Origin: Minisyncoccia bacterium
GTDB lineage: Bacteria > Patescibacteriota > Minisyncoccia > Phycocordibacterales > UBA918
Assembly (NCBI GenBank): GCA_964229335.1
Contig: CAXRCZ010000012.1
Location: 1-33,522 of the forward strand
Direction: 5' to 3'
Length of the DNA stretch: 33,522 nucleotides
Shown: one piece after another, positions 1-33,521 of the stretch
How positions within the stretch are numbered: position 1 is the first letter of the stretch
Layout of the letters: each line of letters opens with the position of its first letter
The notes under the pieces: generated by a model
Seen by the model: only the letters and a program-made list of their open reading frames with translations
Databases searched by the model: none
What the model was told of the DNA's origin: nothing
Position numbers and translations under genes: made by a program

Positions 1-90
1 ACGGGAGGAGGTGCGCATTAGCGTTACCACGCACGCGAATGCGTACGTTGAGGTACAGCCTCACCACGCACTCGGCGCGGCCAGCGTTGT

Positions 91-282
91 TCATCCAAGC
101 TTCGCTTGGAAATAGGTTCGAGCGGAATCATAAAGATGCCCCAGAATGTGACTTTCAGTCATAGAACCGCGCTTCGCGCGCAACGAGGACAAAACAAAGT
201 ACGGTGAAAGTGGCTCTGCGGAGCCGTTTTCCGGTGGGGAATGCAACAGCTCGCGAGCGCGCAGGCGGAGGTTCGCCATCAC
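91..282 (-). pseudogene. Duplicated recombinase C-terminal segment with alternative tail (HLYDSARTYFQAKLG); may be a silent cassette or a small protein
   Basis: NLRLRARELL...SHILG is identical to recombinase residues ~464-509, then diverges. Confidence 0.6.
138..275. repeat. Left arm of perfect 138-bp inverted repeat (partner 1861-1998)
   Basis: GCCCCAGAATGTG...GGAGGTTCG (138-275) is the exact reverse complement of 1861-1998; mismatches immediately outside both ends. Confidence 0.95.
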
Positions 283-337
283 GACAATTTCATTCTCGTT
301 CGGTGGAGTGTATTTATCTGCCCAAAGAAAAGAAGGT
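275..337 (-). repeat. Mosaic of short inverted copies of recombinase gene segments
   Basis: Minus strand reads ACCTTCTTTT (=483-492), CTTTGGGCAGA-TAAATAC (=845-863, 1-nt deletion), CACTCCACCGAACGAGAAT (=1108-1126, exact), TGAAATTGTC-GTGATGGC (=1799-1817, 1 deletion + 1 substitution). Confidence 0.9.
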
Positions 338-345
338 TTGTTTTG

Positions 346-354
346 TGATAAGAT
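346..354 (+). promoter_or_regulatory. Extended -10 promoter of recombinase (TG-A-TAAGAT)
   Basis: TGnTAnnnT match about 6 nt before a structured leader starting near 360. Confidence 0.45.
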
Positions 355-359
355 GGAGT

Positions 360-449
360 TGCAACCAGCCGATATAGAAAGCTTTTTCTAATAGCCGTCC
401 TAGGACAATCAAAGTCTTCTTTGGTTGGTTGCACCTAGGGCGGTTATTA
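360..449 (+). promoter_or_regulatory. Structured 5' leader of recombinase
   Basis: 16-bp stem 389-404:434-449 with inner stem 406-414:419-427; competing 13-bp stem 360-372:421-433; the non-Watson-Crick pairs are G-U on the + strand. Confidence 0.55.
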
Positions 450-470
450 AAGTTTTAATATCTTGTTCTT

Positions 471-2063
471 ATGGAGAAACCTACCTTCTTTTTATATGCC
501 CGCAAGTCGACCGATGTCGAGGATAAGCAGGTACTAAGTATCGAAGCGCAGCTGGCGGAGTTGCGTTCGTTTGCCAAGCTGGAGGGGTTAGAGATAGCAG
601 AGGAGTTTGTGGAGAAAAAGAGTGCCAAGATGCCCGGCCGTCCAATTTTTAATGACATGATGAACCGTCTCGAGCGAAAAGAGGCAGTGGGCATTATCGC
701 TTGGCACCCAGACCGCCTCGCACGCAACTCAGTCGATGGGGGACGAGTTGTGTATCTGCTCGACTGCGAACATATTTCGATGCTGAAATTTCCAACTTTT
801 TGGTTTGAAAACACATCACAAGGAAAATTTATGCTTAGCATCGCCTTTGGGCAGAGTAAATACTACGTGGATTCACTTTCAGAAAACACCAAGCGCGGGC
901 TACGCCAAAAAGTTCGTCGCGGAGAATATCCAGGGCTGGCACCAATGGGATATATCAACGACTCGAGGACAAAGACGGTAGTCATTGATAAAAATAAAGC
1001 GCCAGCCATTACCGCGGCATTTGAATACTACGCTGAGGGTGAACATCGACTGGAAGACGTTGCGAACTTTTTGGCGAAACGAGGGATCAAAGCGCGTGGC
1101 GGAAAACCACTCCACCGAACGAGAATTACTTGTATCCTTTCCAATCCGTTCTACACGGGATTGTTTCAGTACGCAGGTGAGGTACACGAAGGTACTCACC
1201 AACCAATTGTGGCAAAGAAACTGTTTGATGAAGTGCAGGAAGTCATGCAAGAGCGCGGGCGACCGCATAAAAATTTTAAAAATGAGCCACAGGCATTTTG
1301 TGGACTGATGCGGTGTGGAGGTTGCGGCATGATGATTACTGCTGAACATAGGGTTAAAAAACAGAAGAACGGAAACGTGCATGAGTATGTGTATTATCGC
1401 TGTACCAAGAAATCAAAATTAAAATGTGATGAACCCTATGTTCGAGAAGAGGAGATAGATAGACAAGTCACAGCGTTACTAGAAACAGTTTCTTTGCCCG
1501 CGTCGTGGGCGAGGCAGTTGGAGATTATGCTGGCGCAAGAGGAAACTGCCTCAACCTACGACGCAACGGAACATCTCAAGGCAAGCAAGGAGCGTGAGCG
1601 GAGGATAGAACAAAAGCTTGAGCGTCTTCTCGATTCATACCTAGAGCAGGATATTGATCGGGAAGTATATCTCGAGAAGAAAGCAGCTTTGCTCAGTGAA
1701 AAGAAGTCACTGCAGGAGAAAAACGCTGCCTTGGAGACGTCCCGAATTGGCTGGCTCGAACCCATGCGAGAGTGGATACAAGTGGCAGAAAACCTGCCTG
1801 AAATTGTCCGCGATGGCACCCTTTTAAAGAAAAAGGTTGCAGCCAAAGAAATCTTTGGCTCGAACCTCCGCCTGCGCGCTCGCGAGCTGTTGCATTCCCC
1901 ACCGGAAAACGGCTCCGCAGAGCCACTTTCACCGTACTTTGTTTTGTCCTCGTTGCGCGCGAAGCGCGGTTCTATGACTGAAAGTCACATTCTGGGGCGG
2001 CTACCGGGAATCGAACCCGAACTTTCGGTACCACAAACCGATGCACTAACCGTTATACTATAG
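471..2063 (+). CDS. Large serine recombinase (resolvase + recombinase + zinc ribbon + coiled coil)
   Basis: YARKS catalytic Ser motif, DRLARN, LSNPFYTG, CGGCG...YYRC...C zinc ribbon, coiled coil; last 21 aa are encoded by the antisense strand of tRNA-His. Confidence 0.95.
   Translation: MEKPTFFLYARKSTDVEDKQVLSIEAQLAELRSFAKLEGLEIAEEFVEKKSAKMPGRPIFNDMMNRLERKEAVGIIAWHPDRLARNSVDGGRVVYLLDCEHISMLKFPTFWFENTSQGKFMLSIAFGQSKYYVDSLSENTKRGLRQKVRRGEYPGLAPMGYINDSRTKTVVIDKNKAPAITAAFEYYAEGEHRLEDVANFLAKRGIKARGGKPLHRTRITCILSNPFYTGLFQYAGEVHEGTHQPIVAKKLFDEVQEVMQERGRPHKNFKNEPQAFCGLMRCGGCGMMITAEHRVKKQKNGNVHEYVYYRCTKKSKLKCDEPYVREEEIDRQVTALLETVSLPASWARQLEIMLAQEETASTYDATEHLKASKERERRIEQKLERLLDSYLEQDIDREVYLEKKAALLSEKKSLQEKNAALETSRIGWLEPMREWIQVAENLPEIVRDGTLLKKKVAAKEIFGSNLRLRARELLHSPPENGSAEPLSPYFVLSSLRAKRGSMTESHILGRLPGIEPELSVPQTDALTVIL
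1861..1998. repeat. Right arm of 138-bp inverted repeat, inside recombinase 3' end, overlapping the tRNA 3' end by 6 bp (TGGGGC)
   Basis: Exact reverse complement of 138-275. Confidence 0.95.
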
Positions 2064-2068
2064 CCGCC
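1993..2068 (-). tRNA. tRNA-His (GTG) with G-1 and encoded CCA
   Basis: Minus strand GGCGGCTATAGTATAACGGTTAGTGCATCGGTTTGTGGTACCGAAAGTTCGGGTTCGATTCCCGGTAGCCGCCCCA: GCGGCTA/TAGCCGC acceptor stem, GTG anticodon, GGTTCGATTCC T-arm, G-1:C73. Confidence 0.96.
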
Positions 2069-7827: not shown

Positions 7828-7875
7828 TGACCGCCCTACAGGTACGTACTTAGGTACGTACCTGTAGGGCGGTCA
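7828..7875. terminator. Perfect 22-bp hairpin containing a GTACGTAC-N4-GTACGTAC motif
   Basis: TGACCGCCCTACAGGTACGTAC-TTAG-GTACGTACCTGTAGGGCGGTCA. Confidence 0.7.
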
Positions 7876-20950: not shown

Positions 20951-23900
20951 ATGAATAAGAAAGTACATGGTCGTGAAAACGACTCAGTGAAAGTAGAAGA
21001 GAGCGCTCCCACTAGTGAGGTGGCATTGCGAGAAGAAGCCGTGCTCAGCTATTGGCGCGAGCAAGATATTTTTAACAAAAGTATAAAACATCCTGCAGGT
21101 ATAGGATTGGAGGGAGACAAGGTGAATGGCGAAGCCGGAGAAGGTGGCCTGGGCCATTTTGTTTTTTATGATGGACCACCATTTGCGACTGGTTTGCCGC
21201 ACTACGGACATATCTTAGCCGGTACTATCAAAGATGCCATTCCACGCTTTTGGACGATGAATGGCTATCGAGTGCGCCGGCAGTGGGGATGGGATTGTCA
21301 CGGATTGCCACTAGAGAATATTGTAGAGAAAGAGTTAGGATTGGCCACCAAGCGAGACATTGAAGAGTATGGCATCAAGAATTTTAATGAAAAAGCGCGT
21401 GGCATGGTGCTACGTTACGCTGACGATTGGCGCGAAATAATCCCACGCTTTGGTCGGTTTGTAGATATGCAAAACGACTACAAAACTATGGATAGCTCAT
21501 ACACCGAAAGTGTCTGGTGGGCATTCAAACAGCTACATGAAAAAGGACTAGTATACGAAGGGTTCAAGACTATGCACCTATGTCCTCGCTGTGGCACGAC
21601 CCTATCTAACTTTGAGGTCAATCAAGGTTACAAAGATATAAAAGATATTGCTGTCACCGTAAAGCTACCACTCCTTGATGAAGCTGGAGAAGTTTCTGAT
21701 ACCAGTTTGCTCGTCTGGACCACTACTCCATGGACGTTGCCGGGGAACACAGTAGCAGCGGTTCATAATGAAATTGACTATGTCACTGTCAAAATTGTCG
21801 TTGAGGGACAAGCAGAAAAAGTAATTGTAGCTAAAAGCAGATTGTCGCAGCTGGGTAATGTTGAATATGAAATTATTGATGAATACAAAGGCGCAGCCTT
21901 AGTGGGTAAAAAATATAAACCACCGTTCCCATGGCTCACAGAAGAAGACTTCAGTGGCAAAGAAAACGCGTGGACTATCTATCACGCTGACTATGTAGAA
22001 GAGGGCGAGGAAGGCACTGGCGCCGTGCATATTGCTCCCGCCTATGGAGAAGACGACATGAATTTAGCCAAGGAGAATGATGTTCCAATCGTCCATCACG
22101 TCGATGAAAGCGGGCATTTCAAACCATTCGTGACTGACTTTGCCGGACAGCTCGTCAAACCACGCGATGATGATGCGAGTGAGGTGACTCACCTCGATGC
22201 TGATATTGAAGTTGTTAAAGCGCTTAAAGAACGAGGAGTGTTATTTAAGAAAGAAAACATCACTCACAGTTACCCGCATTGTTGGCGGTGTGAGACACCG
22301 CTTCTCAACTACGCGACCACATCGTGGTTTGTGGAAGTAACTAAGATTCGTGACCAACTCGTTAGCATCAATCAGACAGTTAACTGGGTACCCGAACACG
22401 TCGGAAAGAATCGTTTTGGCAAATGGTTGGAAGGAGCGCGTGACTGGGCGGTCAGTCGCCAGCGGTATTGGGGAGCACCGTTGCCGATTTGGAAAAATCC
22501 AGAGACAGGGGAGTATAAAGTCCTGGGTTCACTTAGTGAACTACAAGAGTATGTACCAAACCGCCAGAATAAATACTTCTTTATGCGTCATGGCGAGAGT
22601 GAATCAAATGCCAGCAACGTGGTACAAACCATCATAGATAATCCAAATGCCCTCACAGAAACAGGAAAAGAGCAGGTCAAACAAGCAGTCAAACAGCTTC
22701 GGGAGGCCGGTATAACCCGAATCATCACCTCGCCATTTGAACGTACGGTAGAAACTGCCAAGTTACTACAAGAAGAACTAGAATTACCTAACGAAGCTGT
22801 TCAGCTTGATGAAAGATTGCGAGAGATTGCCATCCCAGAACTTGAAGGTGAATCAAACACCAAGTATCGAGAATTAGTTCAAACAGGAAAAGATTGGAGC
22901 CAAGCAAAAACCGCCAATGGAGAAAGTTGGAGTGATGTGCGTAATCGAGTGGGTGATTTCTTGTACGATATCAATACACAGTACGAAAACGAAACCTTAC
23001 TAATTGTAGGACATAACGCACCACTTAGAATGGTGTCGGCCATTACCAATGGAGACAAGTTGACTGAGAAAGACTTTGATCACGACGATGAAGGAGCTCG
23101 TTATGAAAATGCCGAAGTACGCCAGATAGACTTCACGCCGCTTCCACACAACGAGCAGTATGAACTCGATTTTCACCGACCGTATATTGATGAGTTTGAA
23201 CTCTATGAAGATGGGGTTTTGTTGGAGCGAGTACCAGATGTGTTTGATTGTTGGTTTGAGAGTGGCTCTATGCCATACGCGCAACACCACTATCCGTTTG
23301 CGATGGATGAAGCTAATTTTACAAATGAGCATTTCCCAGCACAATTTATTGCCGAAGGACTTGATCAAACTCGGGGTTGGTTTTATTCAATGATGGTGCT
23401 GGGGGTAGCTCTGTTTGAGAAAAGTCCATACGAAAACGTCATCGTCAACGGGTTGGTCTTAGCCGAAGATGGCAAAAAGATGAGTAAGTCTCTTCAGAAC
23501 TACCCGGATCCCATCGAGCTGGCGAACCGCGTCGGAGCTGATTCAATTCGTTTCTACCTATTATCATCACCAATCATTAAAGGCGAAGACCTTAACTTCT
23601 CCGAAAAGGACGTCACCGAACTACAACGCAAGAATATCGGCCGGCTGCACAATGTACTCGCTATGTATGAGATGTACCAGGATGGAACAAAGGCTAACGG
23701 TGATTCAAGAAACGTTCTCGACCGCTGGATTATCACTCGTCTCAACCAGCTCATTTCTGAAGTGACTGATGGGTACAAGAATTACGAACTCGATAAAGCC
23801 ACCAGACCGATTACTGATTTTATCGATGACCTTTCGGTGTGGTATCTCCGTCGCAGTCGAGACCGGCTCAAACACGATGATTTAGACGACAAGCAAGCCA

Positions 23901-24523
23901 CGCTAGCCACCCTGCGGTATGTACTACAAAATCTGGCCAAGTGCATGGCGCCAGCGATGCCGTTTTATGCTGAACACCTATACCAAGCTGTGAAAGGCGT
24001 GACAGATGTCGAAAGTGTGCATCTTACGCGCTGGCCACAGCCAGACACTATTGATACTGAATTACTTGCTCAAATGGAGACTACCCGAGAAATTGTCACC
24101 ACTGCGCTAGAGAAGAGAACCAAGGCAGGTATTAAAGTACGACAACCAATCAAGAGCGTCAGCGGACCACAGCTACCAGAAGAGCTGCAAACGGTCATAA
24201 CCGATGAGTTGAACGCAAAAAGCTACCAAGCAGCCAATGAGGTAGCAATAGATCAAAATCTCACTCCCGAACTCCTAGCCGAAGGAGCAGTTCGAGAACT
24301 TATGCGAGCCATCCAGAGTAAGCGAAAGAATAACTCACTCGAACCAAATGACACCATTGCGCTCACCATTGAGACGAGCGAATCAGGTCAGAATGCTATC
24401 AATGAGCATCAAGCCCTTCTTACAAAAACTGTCGGCGCAGATGCAATAGAATTTACTTCTACCGAAGGAGAGACAATAGTGGCCAATGACTACGAATTCA
24501 CCTTCTCGTTTAACAAACTATAA
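20951..24523 (+). CDS. ileS: Isoleucine--tRNA ligase (type 2-like) with inserted histidine phosphatase domain
   Basis: DGPPFATGLPHYGH, GWDCHGLP, WTTTPWTLP, DQTRGWF, KMSKS; inserted RHGE domain ~22571-23130. Confidence 0.96.
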   Translation: MNKKVHGRENDSVKVEESAPTSEVALREEAVLSYWREQDIFNKSIKHPAGIGLEGDKVNGEAGEGGLGHFVFYDGPPFATGLPHYGHILAGTIKDAIPRFWTMNGYRVRRQWGWDCHGLPLENIVEKELGLATKRDIEEYGIKNFNEKARGMVLRYADDWREIIPRFGRFVDMQNDYKTMDSSYTESVWWAFKQLHEKGLVYEGFKTMHLCPRCGTTLSNFEVNQGYKDIKDIAVTVKLPLLDEAGEVSDTSLLVWTTTPWTLPGNTVAAVHNEIDYVTVKIVVEGQAEKVIVAKSRLSQLGNVEYEIIDEYKGAALVGKKYKPPFPWLTEEDFSGKENAWTIYHADYVEEGEEGTGAVHIAPAYGEDDMNLAKENDVPIVHHVDESGHFKPFVTDFAGQLVKPRDDDASEVTHLDADIEVVKALKERGVLFKKENITHSYPHCWRCETPLLNYATTSWFVEVTKIRDQLVSINQTVNWVPEHVGKNRFGKWLEGARDWAVSRQRYWGAPLPIWKNPETGEYKVLGSLSELQEYVPNRQNKYFFMRHGESESNASNVVQTIIDNPNALTETGKEQVKQAVKQLREAGITRIITSPFERTVETAKLLQEELELPNEAVQLDERLREIAIPELEGESNTKYRELVQTGKDWSQAKTANGESWSDVRNRVGDFLYDINTQYENETLLIVGHNAPLRMVSAITNGDKLTEKDFDHDDEGARYENAEVRQIDFTPLPHNEQYELDFHRPYIDEFELYEDGVLLERVPDVFDCWFESGSMPYAQHHYPFAMDEANFTNEHFPAQFIAEGLDQTRGWFYSMMVLGVALFEKSPYENVIVNGLVLAEDGKKMSKSLQNYPDPIELANRVGADSIRFYLLSSPIIKGEDLNFSEKDVTELQRKNIGRLHNVLAMYEMYQDGTKANGDSRNVLDRWIITRLNQLISEVTDGYKNYELDKATRPITDFIDDLSVWYLRRSRDRLKHDDLDDKQATLATLRYVLQNLAKCMAPAMPFYAEHLYQAVKGVTDVESVHLTRWPQPDTIDTELLAQMETTREIVTTALEKRTKAGIKVRQPIKSVSGPQLPEELQTVITDELNAKSYQAANEVAIDQNLTPELLAEGAVRELMRAIQSKRKNNSLEPNDTIALTIETSESGQNAINEHQALLTKTVGADAIEFTSTEGETIVANDYEFTFSFNKL

Positions 24524-28389: not shown

Positions 28390-29817
28390 ATGTCAGAAAA
28401 ACGAGCTCAGTACATCACCACCACCTTGCCGTATGTAAACGCGGAGCCGCACGCTGGGTTTGCCCTGGAGGTAGTACAAGCTGATACGTTAGCTCGCTAT
28501 TATCGACTACTGGGCCATCCAGTATTCTTTAGTACCGGAACTGACGAGCATGGACAAAAGATTGCGCAAAAAGCTGAGTCGACTGGTCAAACAACCCAAG
28601 CGTATGTCGATCATTACGCTGAGACATTTACTCGATTGAAAGAATCACTTAATTTGTCGTACGACAATTTTATCCGCACTACCGACAGTAATCACATCGC
28701 AGCTGCTCAAGAAATGTGGCGCCGCTGTGCAAACAAGGGTGATATATATAAAAAGAAGTATACCGGCTTGTATTGCGTAGGGGATGAAATGTTTGTCAAA
28801 GAATCTGATTTAGTTAATGGCAGATGTCCCAACCACCCTGACACCGACCCAGTCGAAATCGAAGAAGAAAACTATTTTTTCAAACTATCGAAGTACCAAG
28901 ATAAACTCCTAGCGTATTTTGAAAATGAATCCAGTACAGTGCCAGACTGGCAACGGAAGTGGGCCATAGAATTTGTAAAAAATGGCTTAGAGGATTTAAG
29001 TATTTCACGACAAAAAGACCGCATGAGCTGGGGTGTGCCAGTGCCTGACGATGATTCACAAGTGATGTACGTATGGTTTGACGCCTTAACCAACTATATC
29101 TCCACTCTTGGTTGGCCGAAAGATGATGATACATTTAAGAAATTTTGGGTAGATGGAAAAACTACGCAATTTGCCGGAAAAGATCAGGTTCGATTTCAGT
29201 CAATTATCTGGCAAGCTATGTTGCTTTCGGCAGAAATTCCGCAGACGGACACTGTGTTTTACCACGGCTTTATAACAAGCGAGGGAAAGAAAATGAGTAA
29301 GAGTATTGGCAACGTAATTTCGCCGTCTGAAATGGTTAATCGCTACGGCACCGAGGCTACACGCTATATCTTATTGCGTCACGTACATCCATACGAAGAT
29401 ACTGACATTTCGTGGGAACGAATGGATGAGTGGTATACCGCCAACTTGGTCAATGGGCTGGGTAATTTGACAGCTCGGATTATGAAGATGGCTGAGACCC
29501 ATCTGGAGCCAGAAGATTTTCCGTTGCTTGACCCAGACACACTTGATTTGCCAGATATTATTGCGTTTCAACCTGCCATGGACCATATTTGGACCATGAT
29601 TCAGGGACTAGACGAGCGAATCACTACAACTGAGCCGTTTAAGCTTATCAAAACCAATCCAGACGAAGCCAAACTCATTATGGGAGAGCTACGCGCCGAG
29701 CTGCTACACATCGGTCGCTTGTTGTTGCCGAGCATGCCCGAAACCAGTAACACTATTCGAGCGGCGGTGCGAGCTAACCAGAAGCCAGATAATCTCTTTG
29801 CGCGACTCGATACATAG
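28390..29817 (+). CDS. metG: Methionine--tRNA ligase (no C-terminal tRNA-binding domain)
   Basis: YITTTLPYVN, GTDEHGQK, YVWFDAL, KMSKS. Confidence 0.96.
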   Translation: MSEKRAQYITTTLPYVNAEPHAGFALEVVQADTLARYYRLLGHPVFFSTGTDEHGQKIAQKAESTGQTTQAYVDHYAETFTRLKESLNLSYDNFIRTTDSNHIAAAQEMWRRCANKGDIYKKKYTGLYCVGDEMFVKESDLVNGRCPNHPDTDPVEIEEENYFFKLSKYQDKLLAYFENESSTVPDWQRKWAIEFVKNGLEDLSISRQKDRMSWGVPVPDDDSQVMYVWFDALTNYISTLGWPKDDDTFKKFWVDGKTTQFAGKDQVRFQSIIWQAMLLSAEIPQTDTVFYHGFITSEGKKMSKSIGNVISPSEMVNRYGTEATRYILLRHVHPYEDTDISWERMDEWYTANLVNGLGNLTARIMKMAETHLEPEDFPLLDPDTLDLPDIIAFQPAMDHIWTMIQGLDERITTTEPFKLIKTNPDEAKLIMGELRAELLHIGRLLLPSMPETSNTIRAAVRANQKPDNLFARLDT

Positions 29818-29852
29818 TACGTACTTAGGTACGTACCTAAGTACGTACTATG
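29813..29852. promoter_or_regulatory. Perfect 40-bp palindrome with three GTACGTAC octamers; putative operator
   Basis: CATAGTACGTACTTAGGTACGTACCTAAGTACGTACTATG abutting extended -10 TGGTATACT (29851-29859). Confidence 0.7.
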
Positions 29853-33501: not shown

Positions 33502-33521
33502 GCGGCTCCTATAGGAGCCGC
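33502..33521 (+). terminator. Hairpin after rpsR
   Basis: GCGGCTCCT-AT-AGGAGCCGC at the window edge. Confidence 0.55.

What the first reader, a model, noticed from the sequence alone, without database searches (positions are those of the whole stretch)
275..337. Upstream 'digest' of the recombinase gene: collinear array of inverted 19-nt pieces of its own CDS
Seen: the 63 nt at 275-337 are built entirely from reverse-complement fragments of the downstream gene, in gene order: 337-328 = 483-492; 327-310 = 845-863 (1-nt deletion); 310-292 = 1108-1126 (19/19); 292-275 = 1799-1817 (1 deletion + 1 substitution); then 275-138 = 1861-1998. The three internal pieces each correspond to exactly 19 nt of the gene, and the last three junctions overlap by 1 nt. 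One exact 19-mer by chance is roughly 1e5/4^19 (<1e-6), before counting order. As single-stranded DNA or RNA, 138-1998 would fold into one nested zipper that loops out about 350, 245, 670 and 45 nt of coding sequence, with the promoter/leader at the apex. Inference: a programmed antisense/guide array that silences, folds or rearranges the recombinase gene, or the footprint of a template-jumping copy or fold-back duplication trimmed by deletions. I do not know of a described element with this layout.
Basis: partly seen in the sequence, partly recalled or inferred. Interest (0 to 1): 0.92.

Follow-up and report, generated by a model that had tools for sequence, protein, structure and literature searches.

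The report
Self-folding recombinase gene with stapling spine
In mobile DNA of ultra-small bacteria, short pieces upstream of a DNA-inserting enzyme's gene are near-exact mirror copies of parts of that same gene, and they are predicted to staple the whole gene into one folded single strand, likely DNA, while it moves between cells.

Summary
The 63-nt 'digest' recurs at the same four gene positions in related tRNA-inserted serine-recombinase elements, mostly Patescibacteria: at least 2 pieces in 42 of 87 non-redundant modules. It follows each element's own gene (145 of 153 changes).

It is the spine of a larger fold. The coding sequence itself carries nested exact inverted repeats (393 vs 10 expected; 10 of 1082 pairs cross). 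Synonymous divergence is about 3-fold lower at paired sites. The pieces lie upstream of a conserved promoter motif and lack the G-T wobble bias of the adjacent leader, which favours single-stranded DNA over mRNA. They are inherited and slowly compensated, not re-copied.

Best reading: a fold for a single-stranded transfer stage (0.5). No single-stranded or free form was observed. Ten literature searches found no description. This scan had already noted the element family and its predicted fold on other DNA (e1-5108210, e1-2098632).

The parts
1..141 (.). X arm (P'-like arm of the attachment site; runs off the contig start). Its inverted copy is the end of contig C9, joined there to host DNA (attR-like). 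On the minus strand it encodes the conserved C-terminal tail that the integrated gene lacks
   Evidence: second repeat pair seen in 20 of 79 homologous loci
138..141 (.). 4-nt core shared by the internal inverted attP (X|IR), the tRNA junction (1995-1998) and the C9 host junction
138..275 (+). Left arm of the perfect 138-nt inverted repeat (IR; P-like arm)
275..292 (+). Digest piece D, complementary to 1799-1817 (gene nt ~1330-1347); 1 deletion + 1 substitution
292..310 (+). Digest piece C, complementary to 1108-1126 (gene nt ~638-656); 19/19
310..327 (+). Digest piece B, complementary to 845-863 (gene nt ~375-393); 1 deletion
328..343 (+). Digest piece A, complementary to 477-492 (exact over 328-337 / 483-492)
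346..354 (+). Extended -10 promoter-like motif (TG-n-TAnnnT) directly after piece A; the inferred transcription start lies downstream of the digest
   Evidence: motif within 45 nt of piece A in 29 of 32 loci vs 71 of 2484 coding windows; alignments; function inferred
360..456 (+). Optional leader with two mutually exclusive helices (360-367/426-433 and 390-404/434-448) and RNA-type G-T wobble pairs; apex of the fold
   Evidence: no Rfam match
471..2063 (+). Large serine recombinase ORF, 530 aa (Resolvase, Recombinase, Zn_ribbon_recom); its last codons run antisense through tRNA-His
903..1076 (.). Conserved intragenic helix 903-916 / 1063-1076, inside the loop between pieces B and C
1211..1498 (.). 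Conserved intragenic helices 1211-1226 / 1483-1498 and 1344-1355 / 1432-1443, inside the loop between pieces C and D
1861..1998 (+). Right arm of the 138-nt inverted repeat; it is coding sequence and ends in the tRNA 3' end (attL-like junction)
1993..2067 (-). tRNA-His(GTG), the integration target; its T-loop motif lies 4 nt nearer the core than the matching motif in X

Best explanation
The 63-nt digest is the spine of a conserved, nested fold of the whole 1.9-kb recombinase module, and this fold likely forms on single-stranded DNA when the mobile element passes between cells. Shown: the element is host | rc(X) - cargo - X | IR - digest - promoter motif - leader - recombinase gene - rc(IR) | tRNA 3' end. 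On one strand the IR arms can pair, pieces D, C, B and A continue that stem, and each looped-out part of the gene is closed by its own conserved helices. Selection maintains the pairing. Inferred: the folding molecule is DNA, because the digest lies upstream of the promoter motif and the helices lack wobble bias. Inferred: the single-stranded stage is uptake by natural transformation, since ComEC and DprA are encoded in this genome. Predicted: the fold would protect and compact the incoming strand, while the two long repeat pairs would zip into one double-stranded attP. The integrase would then insert the element at the 3' end of a tRNA gene, reading the T-loop as half-site, probably after second-strand synthesis. 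Insertion removes the enzyme's conserved tail.
For: Recurrence at fixed positions in two independent collections: pieces A 33, B 38, C 12, D 39 of 87 non-redundant modules; at least 2 pieces in 42 of 87. Pieces follow their own gene in 145 of 153 changes, 74 of them at codon positions 1-2. Intragenic exact inverted repeats of 12 nt or more: 393 vs 10.0 expected in 92 modules. Controls show none: 6 vs 5.0 in 30 Patescibacteria-order recombinase genes of another family, and 1 vs 2.2 in 9 host genes. Helices nest: 10 of 1082 pairs cross vs 17.7% in a span-preserving null. Synonymous third-position divergence is 8.2% at digest targets, 10.3% in gene helices and 26.2% unpaired (22 pairs). With a strand-symmetric finder, G-T:A-C mismatches are 89:4 in the leader but 41:32 in the digest and 96:139 in the gene. 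The extended -10 lies downstream of the digest in 29 of 32 loci. Predicted DNA folds of either strand contain all four digest helices. ComEC and DprA are present; Saccharibacteria are naturally competent (PMC10633639, passages). Integron sites fold during transformation and conjugation (PMC8946536, passages).
Against: No single-stranded or free form was observed; the depth pattern in run X1 is inconclusive. Serine recombinases cut both strands (established knowledge, recalled), so direct use of a folded single-stranded circle would leave hairpin-capped breaks; a second-strand step or unknown chemistry is needed. Cargo is only weakly self-complementary (29 vs 9.3 in 20 cargo loops; about 2-fold in 13 more), although it would travel on the same strand. 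One branch (for example L019, L022, L045-L052) keeps the long repeats but lacks the digest and most gene helices, so the fold is not essential to the family. G-T is also favoured over A-C in DNA, so no bias means either both strands fold or wobble is not selected. The small A-C excess (139 vs 96) would fit a minus-strand fold, which could be RNA. Related loci share mismatches, so the p-values overstate.
Confidence: 0.5

Rival explanations
1. The fold acts on RNA: a read-through transcript (from the tRNA promoter on the minus strand, or from cargo/X on the plus strand) folds end to end, is cut by a double-strand RNase or sequesters the mRNA, and so silences the recombinase in the integrated state.
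For: The tRNA gene points into the module in 100 of 138 loci (2 upstream, 14 none, 22 contig ends), so antisense read-through is available. The slight A-C excess on the plus strand (139 vs 96) equals G-U on the minus strand. The fold is far stronger in the recombinase module than in cargo.
Against: Other (non-wobble) mismatches dominate in gene helices (219 vs 81 G-T and 115 A-C in the 56 strongly folded modules), unlike the leader (32 other, 54 G-T, 0 A-C). Silencing would not need about ten nested helices spread over the whole gene. No RNA run holds the stretch, so expression could not be tested.
Confidence: 0.2
2. The fold is single-stranded DNA but forms inside the resident cell (lagging-strand template, or a strand displaced during excision or replication of the circle). 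It brings the attachment arms together and buries the promoter, guiding excision or inversion rather than uptake.
For: Same DNA-type evidence as the main reading. It explains why the module, not the cargo, is folded. The long repeats are homogenised (258 compensated vs 45 one-sided), which needs frequent pairing or recombination of the arms. Lagging-strand folding is known for attC (PMC8946536, passages).
Against: A 1.9-kb fold is at or above the length exposed between Okazaki fragments and would compete with SSB (recalled). Orientation relative to replication was not tested.
Confidence: 0.15
3. The repeats are a non-adaptive mutational footprint: template switching in a hairpin-prone segment created and perfected inverted matches, which are then inherited.
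For: Pieces match their own gene even at amino-acid-changing sites; the long IR is clearly copy-corrected.
Against: Digest and gene helices are not copy-corrected (mostly one-sided changes). They show about 3-fold lower synonymous divergence and almost never cross, as expected only if they must coexist in one structure.
Confidence: 0.07
4. The digest is a programmed guide or antisense array that directs the recombinase or a rearrangement of its gene.
For: The pieces are contiguous, 12-21 nt long, and vary in number (0-4) between elements. In one subfamily similar pieces lie in the cargo loop in non-nested order (L067, L075, L077, L079).
Against: Targets are fixed, there are no repeats between pieces, the pieces lie upstream of the promoter motif, and equivalent helices occur wholly inside the gene. 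No rearranged or shortened gene joints appear in four runs (contigs only).
Confidence: 0.06
5. Assembly or amplification artefact.
For: The contig starts at an assembly fork, and the genome holds a 126.7-kb perfectly palindromic contig.
Against: Junctions are spanned by contigs of three samples, and the layout recurs with co-varying sequence in dozens of independent assemblies.
Confidence: 0.01

Closest known systems
Large serine integrases and their attP/attB logic (A118/LI, phiC31, Bxb1)
   Same: Resolvase + Recombinase + zinc-ribbon domains. A shared motif sits 4 nt further from the core in the element arm than in the tRNA arm (43 of 54 loci), like the 5-bp ZD-motif shift between attP and attB (PMC3783163, passages).
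   Different: Two inverted copies of attP, 32 different tRNA targets, and a self-complementary gene. The best phage and plasmid hits are under 30% identical (listed rows). Known substrates are double-stranded.
Dehalococcoides ssrA islands with DsiB; SCCmec CcrB
   Same: The large serine recombinase gene overlaps attP/attL, reads antisense into a small-RNA gene and has a variable C-terminus (PMC3146451, passages).
   Different: Direct-repeat boundaries and a six-gene module. The words 'inverted' and 'hairpin' do not occur in that paper's main text (its supplements were not read).
Integron attC cassettes; CTX phage attP; IS200/IS605 and REP (folded single-stranded DNA substrates)
   Same: Function depends on a strand folding on itself during transformation, conjugation or replication (PMC8946536, passages; CTX and IS200/IS605 recalled).
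   Different: Those use tyrosine or HUH enzymes and short non-coding hairpins with fixed extrahelical bases. Here the enzyme is a serine recombinase, the fold covers 1.9 kb of its own coding sequence, and bulges are not conserved.
Single-strand promoters and origins (Frpo, sso, M13 minus-strand origin)
   Same: A fold that places a -10 element at a stem end (names seen in the search listing; mechanism recalled).
   Different: Those are a few hundred non-coding bases. No priming or promoter activity was tested here.
DIRS retrotransposon internal complementary region (recalled)
   Same: Inverted terminal repeats plus internal segments complementary to other parts of the element, acting on a single strand.
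   Different: No reverse transcriptase among 41 cargo ORFs scanned; tyrosine versus serine recombinase.

Membership tests
Large serine recombinase integrative element | Catalytic resolvase domain followed by recombinase and zinc-ribbon domains | tested here: met
   PF00239, PF07508, PF13408 above cut-off
Large serine recombinase integrative element | attL/attR hybrids with a short shared core and an attP that joins the two element arms | tested here: met
   host|rc(X) on C9, rc(IR)|tRNA and internal X|IR share a 4-nt core
Large serine recombinase integrative element | Binding motif shifted about 5 bp between attP and attB half-sites | tested here: met
   4-nt offset in 43 of 54 scorable loci, 5 nt in 5; comparison PMC3783163
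Large serine recombinase integrative element | A single attP on a double-stranded excised circle | tested here: not met
   a second, inverted attP is retained inside the integrated element; no circle was observed
Large serine recombinase integrative element | Demonstrated attP x attB recombination and an empty site | tested here: inconclusive
   no empty-site joint in contigs of four runs; tRNA-His matches in relatives were not analysed for synteny
Integron / CTX-type folded-ssDNA recombination | Tyrosine recombinase | tested here: not met
   serine recombinase
Integron / CTX-type folded-ssDNA recombination | Recombination site formed by a folded single strand | tested here: inconclusive
   sequence allows a double-stranded attP from one strand; activity untested
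Integron / CTX-type folded-ssDNA recombination | Conserved extrahelical bases | tested here: not met
   1-nt bulges occur in a minority of pieces and at varying positions
CRISPR-like / bridge-RNA-like guide array | Repeat-spacer layout or variable targets | tested here: not met
   pieces are contiguous, without repeats, and have fixed self targets
CRISPR-like / bridge-RNA-like guide array | Expressed as RNA | not testable with these tools
   no RNA holder listed
Structured cis-regulatory RNA | G-U wobble bias on the transcribed strand | tested here: not met
   digest 41:32 and gene 96:139 G-T:A-C, versus leader 89:4
Structured cis-regulatory RNA | Match to a curated RNA family | tested here: not met
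   only tRNA reaches a gathering score in 1-2300

The most novel reading that the evidence does not exclude
A class of serine-recombinase mobile elements with a single-stranded DNA life stage. The strand self-assembles like natural DNA origami, with an upstream staple strand holding the enzyme's own gene in a fixed branched shape and two inverted arms forming a double-stranded attP. The integrase acts on this folded strand to enter the 3' end of almost any tRNA gene.
Probability: 0.35. Interest if true: 0.93.

Novelty: new variant of a known kind. Interest (0 to 1): 0.8.

Why it matters
A bacterial protein-coding gene under selection to fold end to end as a single strand, with DNA-like rather than RNA-like pairing, is unexpected. 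If the single-strand model holds, serine integrases would join tyrosine and HUH enzymes in using folded DNA. It would also explain how small integrative elements without conjugation or capsid genes spread in naturally competent Patescibacteria. The enzymes insert at 32 different tRNA gene types, apparently by reading the T-loop, which is of interest for genome-engineering tools. The claim is directly testable by synonymous recoding with compensatory rescue.

Tried and rejected
1. Chimera or one-off duplication: rejected.
2. Fixed 19-nt unit and conserved bulges: rejected; lengths are about 12-21 nt and bulges vary.
3. Shared protein-binding consensus among the four targets: none visible.
4. 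Re-copying of the pieces each cycle: rejected. Changes are mostly one-sided, and in the window piece D keeps the base seen in L001's gene while the window's gene has changed.
5. Piece C and the internal helix at gene nt 396-412/630-647 as mutually exclusive alternatives: not supported (Fisher p = 0.71, 42 loci).
6. Free circle from depth: in run X1 the X|IR joint (15.9) is deeper than host|X (6.2) and the gene (9.2-9.6), but these are single short contigs at low depth and the tRNA side reads 9.3; inconclusive. Loci whose gene ends in the full tail (L096, L119, L145, L149), or with X on both sides (L140), cannot be taken as circles because the repeat makes the assembly path ambiguous.
7. No RNA holder listed.
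8. Viral origin: only 2 partial matches in viral contigs.
9. Generic promoter/terminator scan of 1-2300: not above shuffles.
10. RNAalifold energies of the two strands are similar (-397 vs -381 kcal/mol, 18 loci) and do not identify the strand.
11. A planned tRNA wobble control was not obtained; the leader served as the internal positive control.
12. Literature searches that found no description; some searches gave only analogues. PMC10083194 has no occurrence of 'tRNA', 'single-stranded' or 'candidate phyla' in its main text (supplements not read). One review on folded DNA was not held. The library lacks most subscription papers.

Full report
OBSERVATION. The window (G000 contig C12) has an exact 138-nt inverted repeat, 138-275 / 1861-1998, around a 530-aa large serine recombinase ORF (471-2063) that ends antisense in tRNA-His (1993-2067). 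A collinear spliced alignment scores 55, against a maximum of 30 in 300 synonymous shuffles of the gene. Contigs span the junctions in run X1 (possibly the source), X2 and in part X4, all from one study and contigs only.

THE ELEMENT. Window 1-141 is also the reversed end of contig C9, where it joins host DNA. In 20 of 79 homologous genome loci a second long inverted repeat (X, up to 288 nt) flanks 1.0-2.3 kb of unrelated cargo and abuts the first. Pfam hits among 41 cargo ORFs include NUDIX, methyltransferase, HAD, HEPN and Fic; no reverse transcriptase or replication protein was hit. The layout is host | rc(X) - cargo - X | IR - digest - gene - rc(IR) | tRNA. The three junctions share a 4-nt core, and the internal X|IR junction read on the minus strand gives the gene end with a conserved tail that the integrated gene lacks. 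So an intact attP is kept inverted inside the element (inference). Targets are the 3' ends of 32 tRNA types in 74 of 92 non-redundant modules. Over all 138 loci examined the tRNA is downstream in 100, upstream in 2, absent in 14, and the contig ends in 22. A T-loop-like motif lies 4 nt further from the core in X than in the tRNA in 43 of 54 scorable loci, resembling the 5-bp attP/attB shift of serine integrases (PMC3783163, passages). Eleven of 61 related genomes carry a homologue at E <= 1e-80. Earlier notes of this scan describe this family on other DNA; I had derived the layout before reading them.

THE DIGEST IS CONSERVED AND FOLLOWS ITS OWN GENE. Pieces recur at gene nt ~5-29 (A), ~375-400 (B), ~637-664 (C) and ~1300-1350 (D) in the genome set and in a separate metagenome set. 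Of 114 modules with a complete repeat and no ambiguous bases, 92 remained after removing near-duplicates. Of the 87 of these that could be anchored, 33, 38, 12 and 39 carry A, B, C and D; 42 carry two or more, 3 all four, and 31 none. Among rows scoring 10 or more in a 66-locus set, the piece follows the gene in 145 of 153 cases where the gene departs from the column majority (71 third, 44 first, 30 second codon positions). That count is favoured by the local alignment, but own-gene scores also exceed mean scores against the other 65 genes wherever a piece is present.

THE GENE ITSELF FOLDS. Exact intragenic inverted repeats of 11 nt or more number 215 vs 12.1 expected in 24 digest-bearing genes and 183 vs 12.2 in the other 42, at recurring positions. 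At 12 nt or more there are 393 vs 10.0 in the 92 modules. Controls show no excess: 30 serine recombinase genes of another family from the same order (6 vs 5.0; none with a long repeat) and 9 host genes (1 vs 2.2). The helices are compatible with one planar structure: 10 of 1082 intragenic pairs cross (null 17.7%), and 20 of 1798 when the digest is included (re-pairing null 33%). A consensus fold of 18 loci gives 20 helices of 5 or more pairs common to both strands, with more than one Watson-Crick pair type at 79 of 225 pairs. The DNA-parameter fold of 138-1998 contains the four digest helices on either strand. The window's own gene is a modest case: 3 exact repeats of 11 nt or more vs 0.2 expected. 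Cargo is only weakly enriched: 19 vs 5.0 in 40 genes, and 29 vs 9.3 in 20 loops.

SELECTION, NOT RE-COPYING. In 25 pairs of close relatives the long repeat changes on both arms together (258 compensated, 45 one-sided). The digest (8 vs 117) and gene helices (30 vs 328) change mostly on one side, with compensation about 2-2.5 times the independent expectation. Helices were defined on one member of each pair, which inflates one-sided counts. Third-position synonymous divergence is 29 of 352 at digest targets, 205 of 1987 in gene helices and 1596 of 6099 unpaired (22 pairs, after leaving out two pairs of the weakly folded branch and one pair with a stop in frame).

DNA OR RNA. An extended -10 motif follows piece A within 45 nt in 29 of 32 loci (background 71 of 2484 windows; window 346-354). 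In L083, L084 and L089 it sits just before the start codon. The digest is therefore probably not part of the recombinase mRNA (inference). With a finder blind to strand, the optional leader shows 89 G-T vs 4 A-C mismatches, as an RNA fold should. The digest shows 41 vs 32 and the gene 96 vs 139. This argues against a plus-strand RNA and favours DNA. It does not exclude a minus-strand read-through RNA from the tRNA gene, and related loci are not independent. No RNA run was available.

MECHANISM. I commit to a single-stranded DNA transfer stage (0.5). The genome encodes ComEC and DprA, Saccharibacteria are naturally competent (PMC10633639, passages), and transformation is known to fold recombination sites of integrons (PMC8946536, passages). 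On one strand, X pairs with rc(X) and IR with rc(IR), which would give a double-stranded attP; the digest and internal helices would compact and shield the gene. Shown steps: architecture, complementarity, nesting, selection. Inferred steps: DNA as the folding polymer, uptake as the stage, protection as the purpose, and how a double-strand-cutting enzyme completes insertion. Against it: no free or single-stranded form was seen, cargo folds weakly, and one branch lacks the digest and most helices.

COMPARISON AND NOVELTY. The element meets three tested features of serine-integrase elements and departs from them in keeping a second inverted attP. DsiB of Dehalococcoides shares the self-truncating gene at a small-RNA end, but its paper mentions no inverted repeats or hairpins (PMC3146451, passages; lead taken from note e1-2098632). 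The best phage and plasmid relatives listed are under 30% identical. Ten full-text searches (listings only) found no description of this fold; subscription papers and supplements were not covered. Two earlier notes of this scan (e1-5108210, e1-2098632; seen) predicted the same whole-gene fold on other DNA; they are not independent evidence.

VERDICT. Real, conserved and strange. It is a new variant of serine-integrase elements whose gene is built to fold as one strand. Interest 0.8.

Noticed in passing
window 360-456; homologous leaders in L082-L149: Optional ~100-nt leader between the promoter motif and the start codon, with a-b-a'-b' architecture (two mutually exclusive helices) and a strong G-U bias; absent from leaderless variants such as L083, L084, L089; no Rfam match. 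Likely an RNA switch (also noted in e1-2029100).
   Followed up: partly
L001, about 580 nt inside digest piece A: An insertion with its own short terminal inverted repeats splits the digest; it would loop out without breaking the fold. The gene end of L001 joins a non-tRNA sequence resembling another X-type arm.
   Followed up: no
L067, L074, L075, L077, L079 (about -320 to -226 from the match start): A subfamily whose short complementary pieces lie upstream of the X arm (in L075, at the edge of the cargo loop) and pair with the gene module in non-nested order (loop-loop or pseudoknot topology).
   Followed up: partly
G000 contig C7 (126,716 nt); window 7828-7875, 29813-29852, 33502-33521: C7 is a perfect palindrome centred on a short palindromic repeat, probably an assembler artefact that may inflate the contamination figure; related palindromic repeats occur twice in the window, and another palindrome ends the contig.
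   Followed up: partly
G000:C4:137430-138725 (L173, L182): A second, 431-aa serine recombinase of another family, with no long repeats or internal fold; used as a control. Its family matched in 32 of 121 genomes of the order.
   Followed up: yes
L041 (-380..-304), L062 (-428..-340, -266..-171): Two of 138 loci have a tRNA upstream on the same strand, possibly the flipped isomer; both contigs end too early to see the gene tail.
   Followed up: partly
L174 ~1873-1946 and ~2170-2201 (end region of C9): Further assembly forks and raised depth 0.8-1.1 kb from the host junction, suggesting another repeated or variable segment beside the element.
   Followed up: no
L061 ~+1500 to +1900; L038 ~+1583 to +1816: Tandem direct duplications downstream of the element at the tRNA (204 nt in L061, 58 nt in L038).
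   Followed up: no
window 20951-24523: A 1190-aa class I tRNA synthetase (I/L/M/V family) with an inserted histidine-phosphatase domain.
   Followed up: no
C9 end to C12 start: This element's cargo is unassembled in G000; in run X1 the X contig extends 105 nt beyond the window start.
   Followed up: partly
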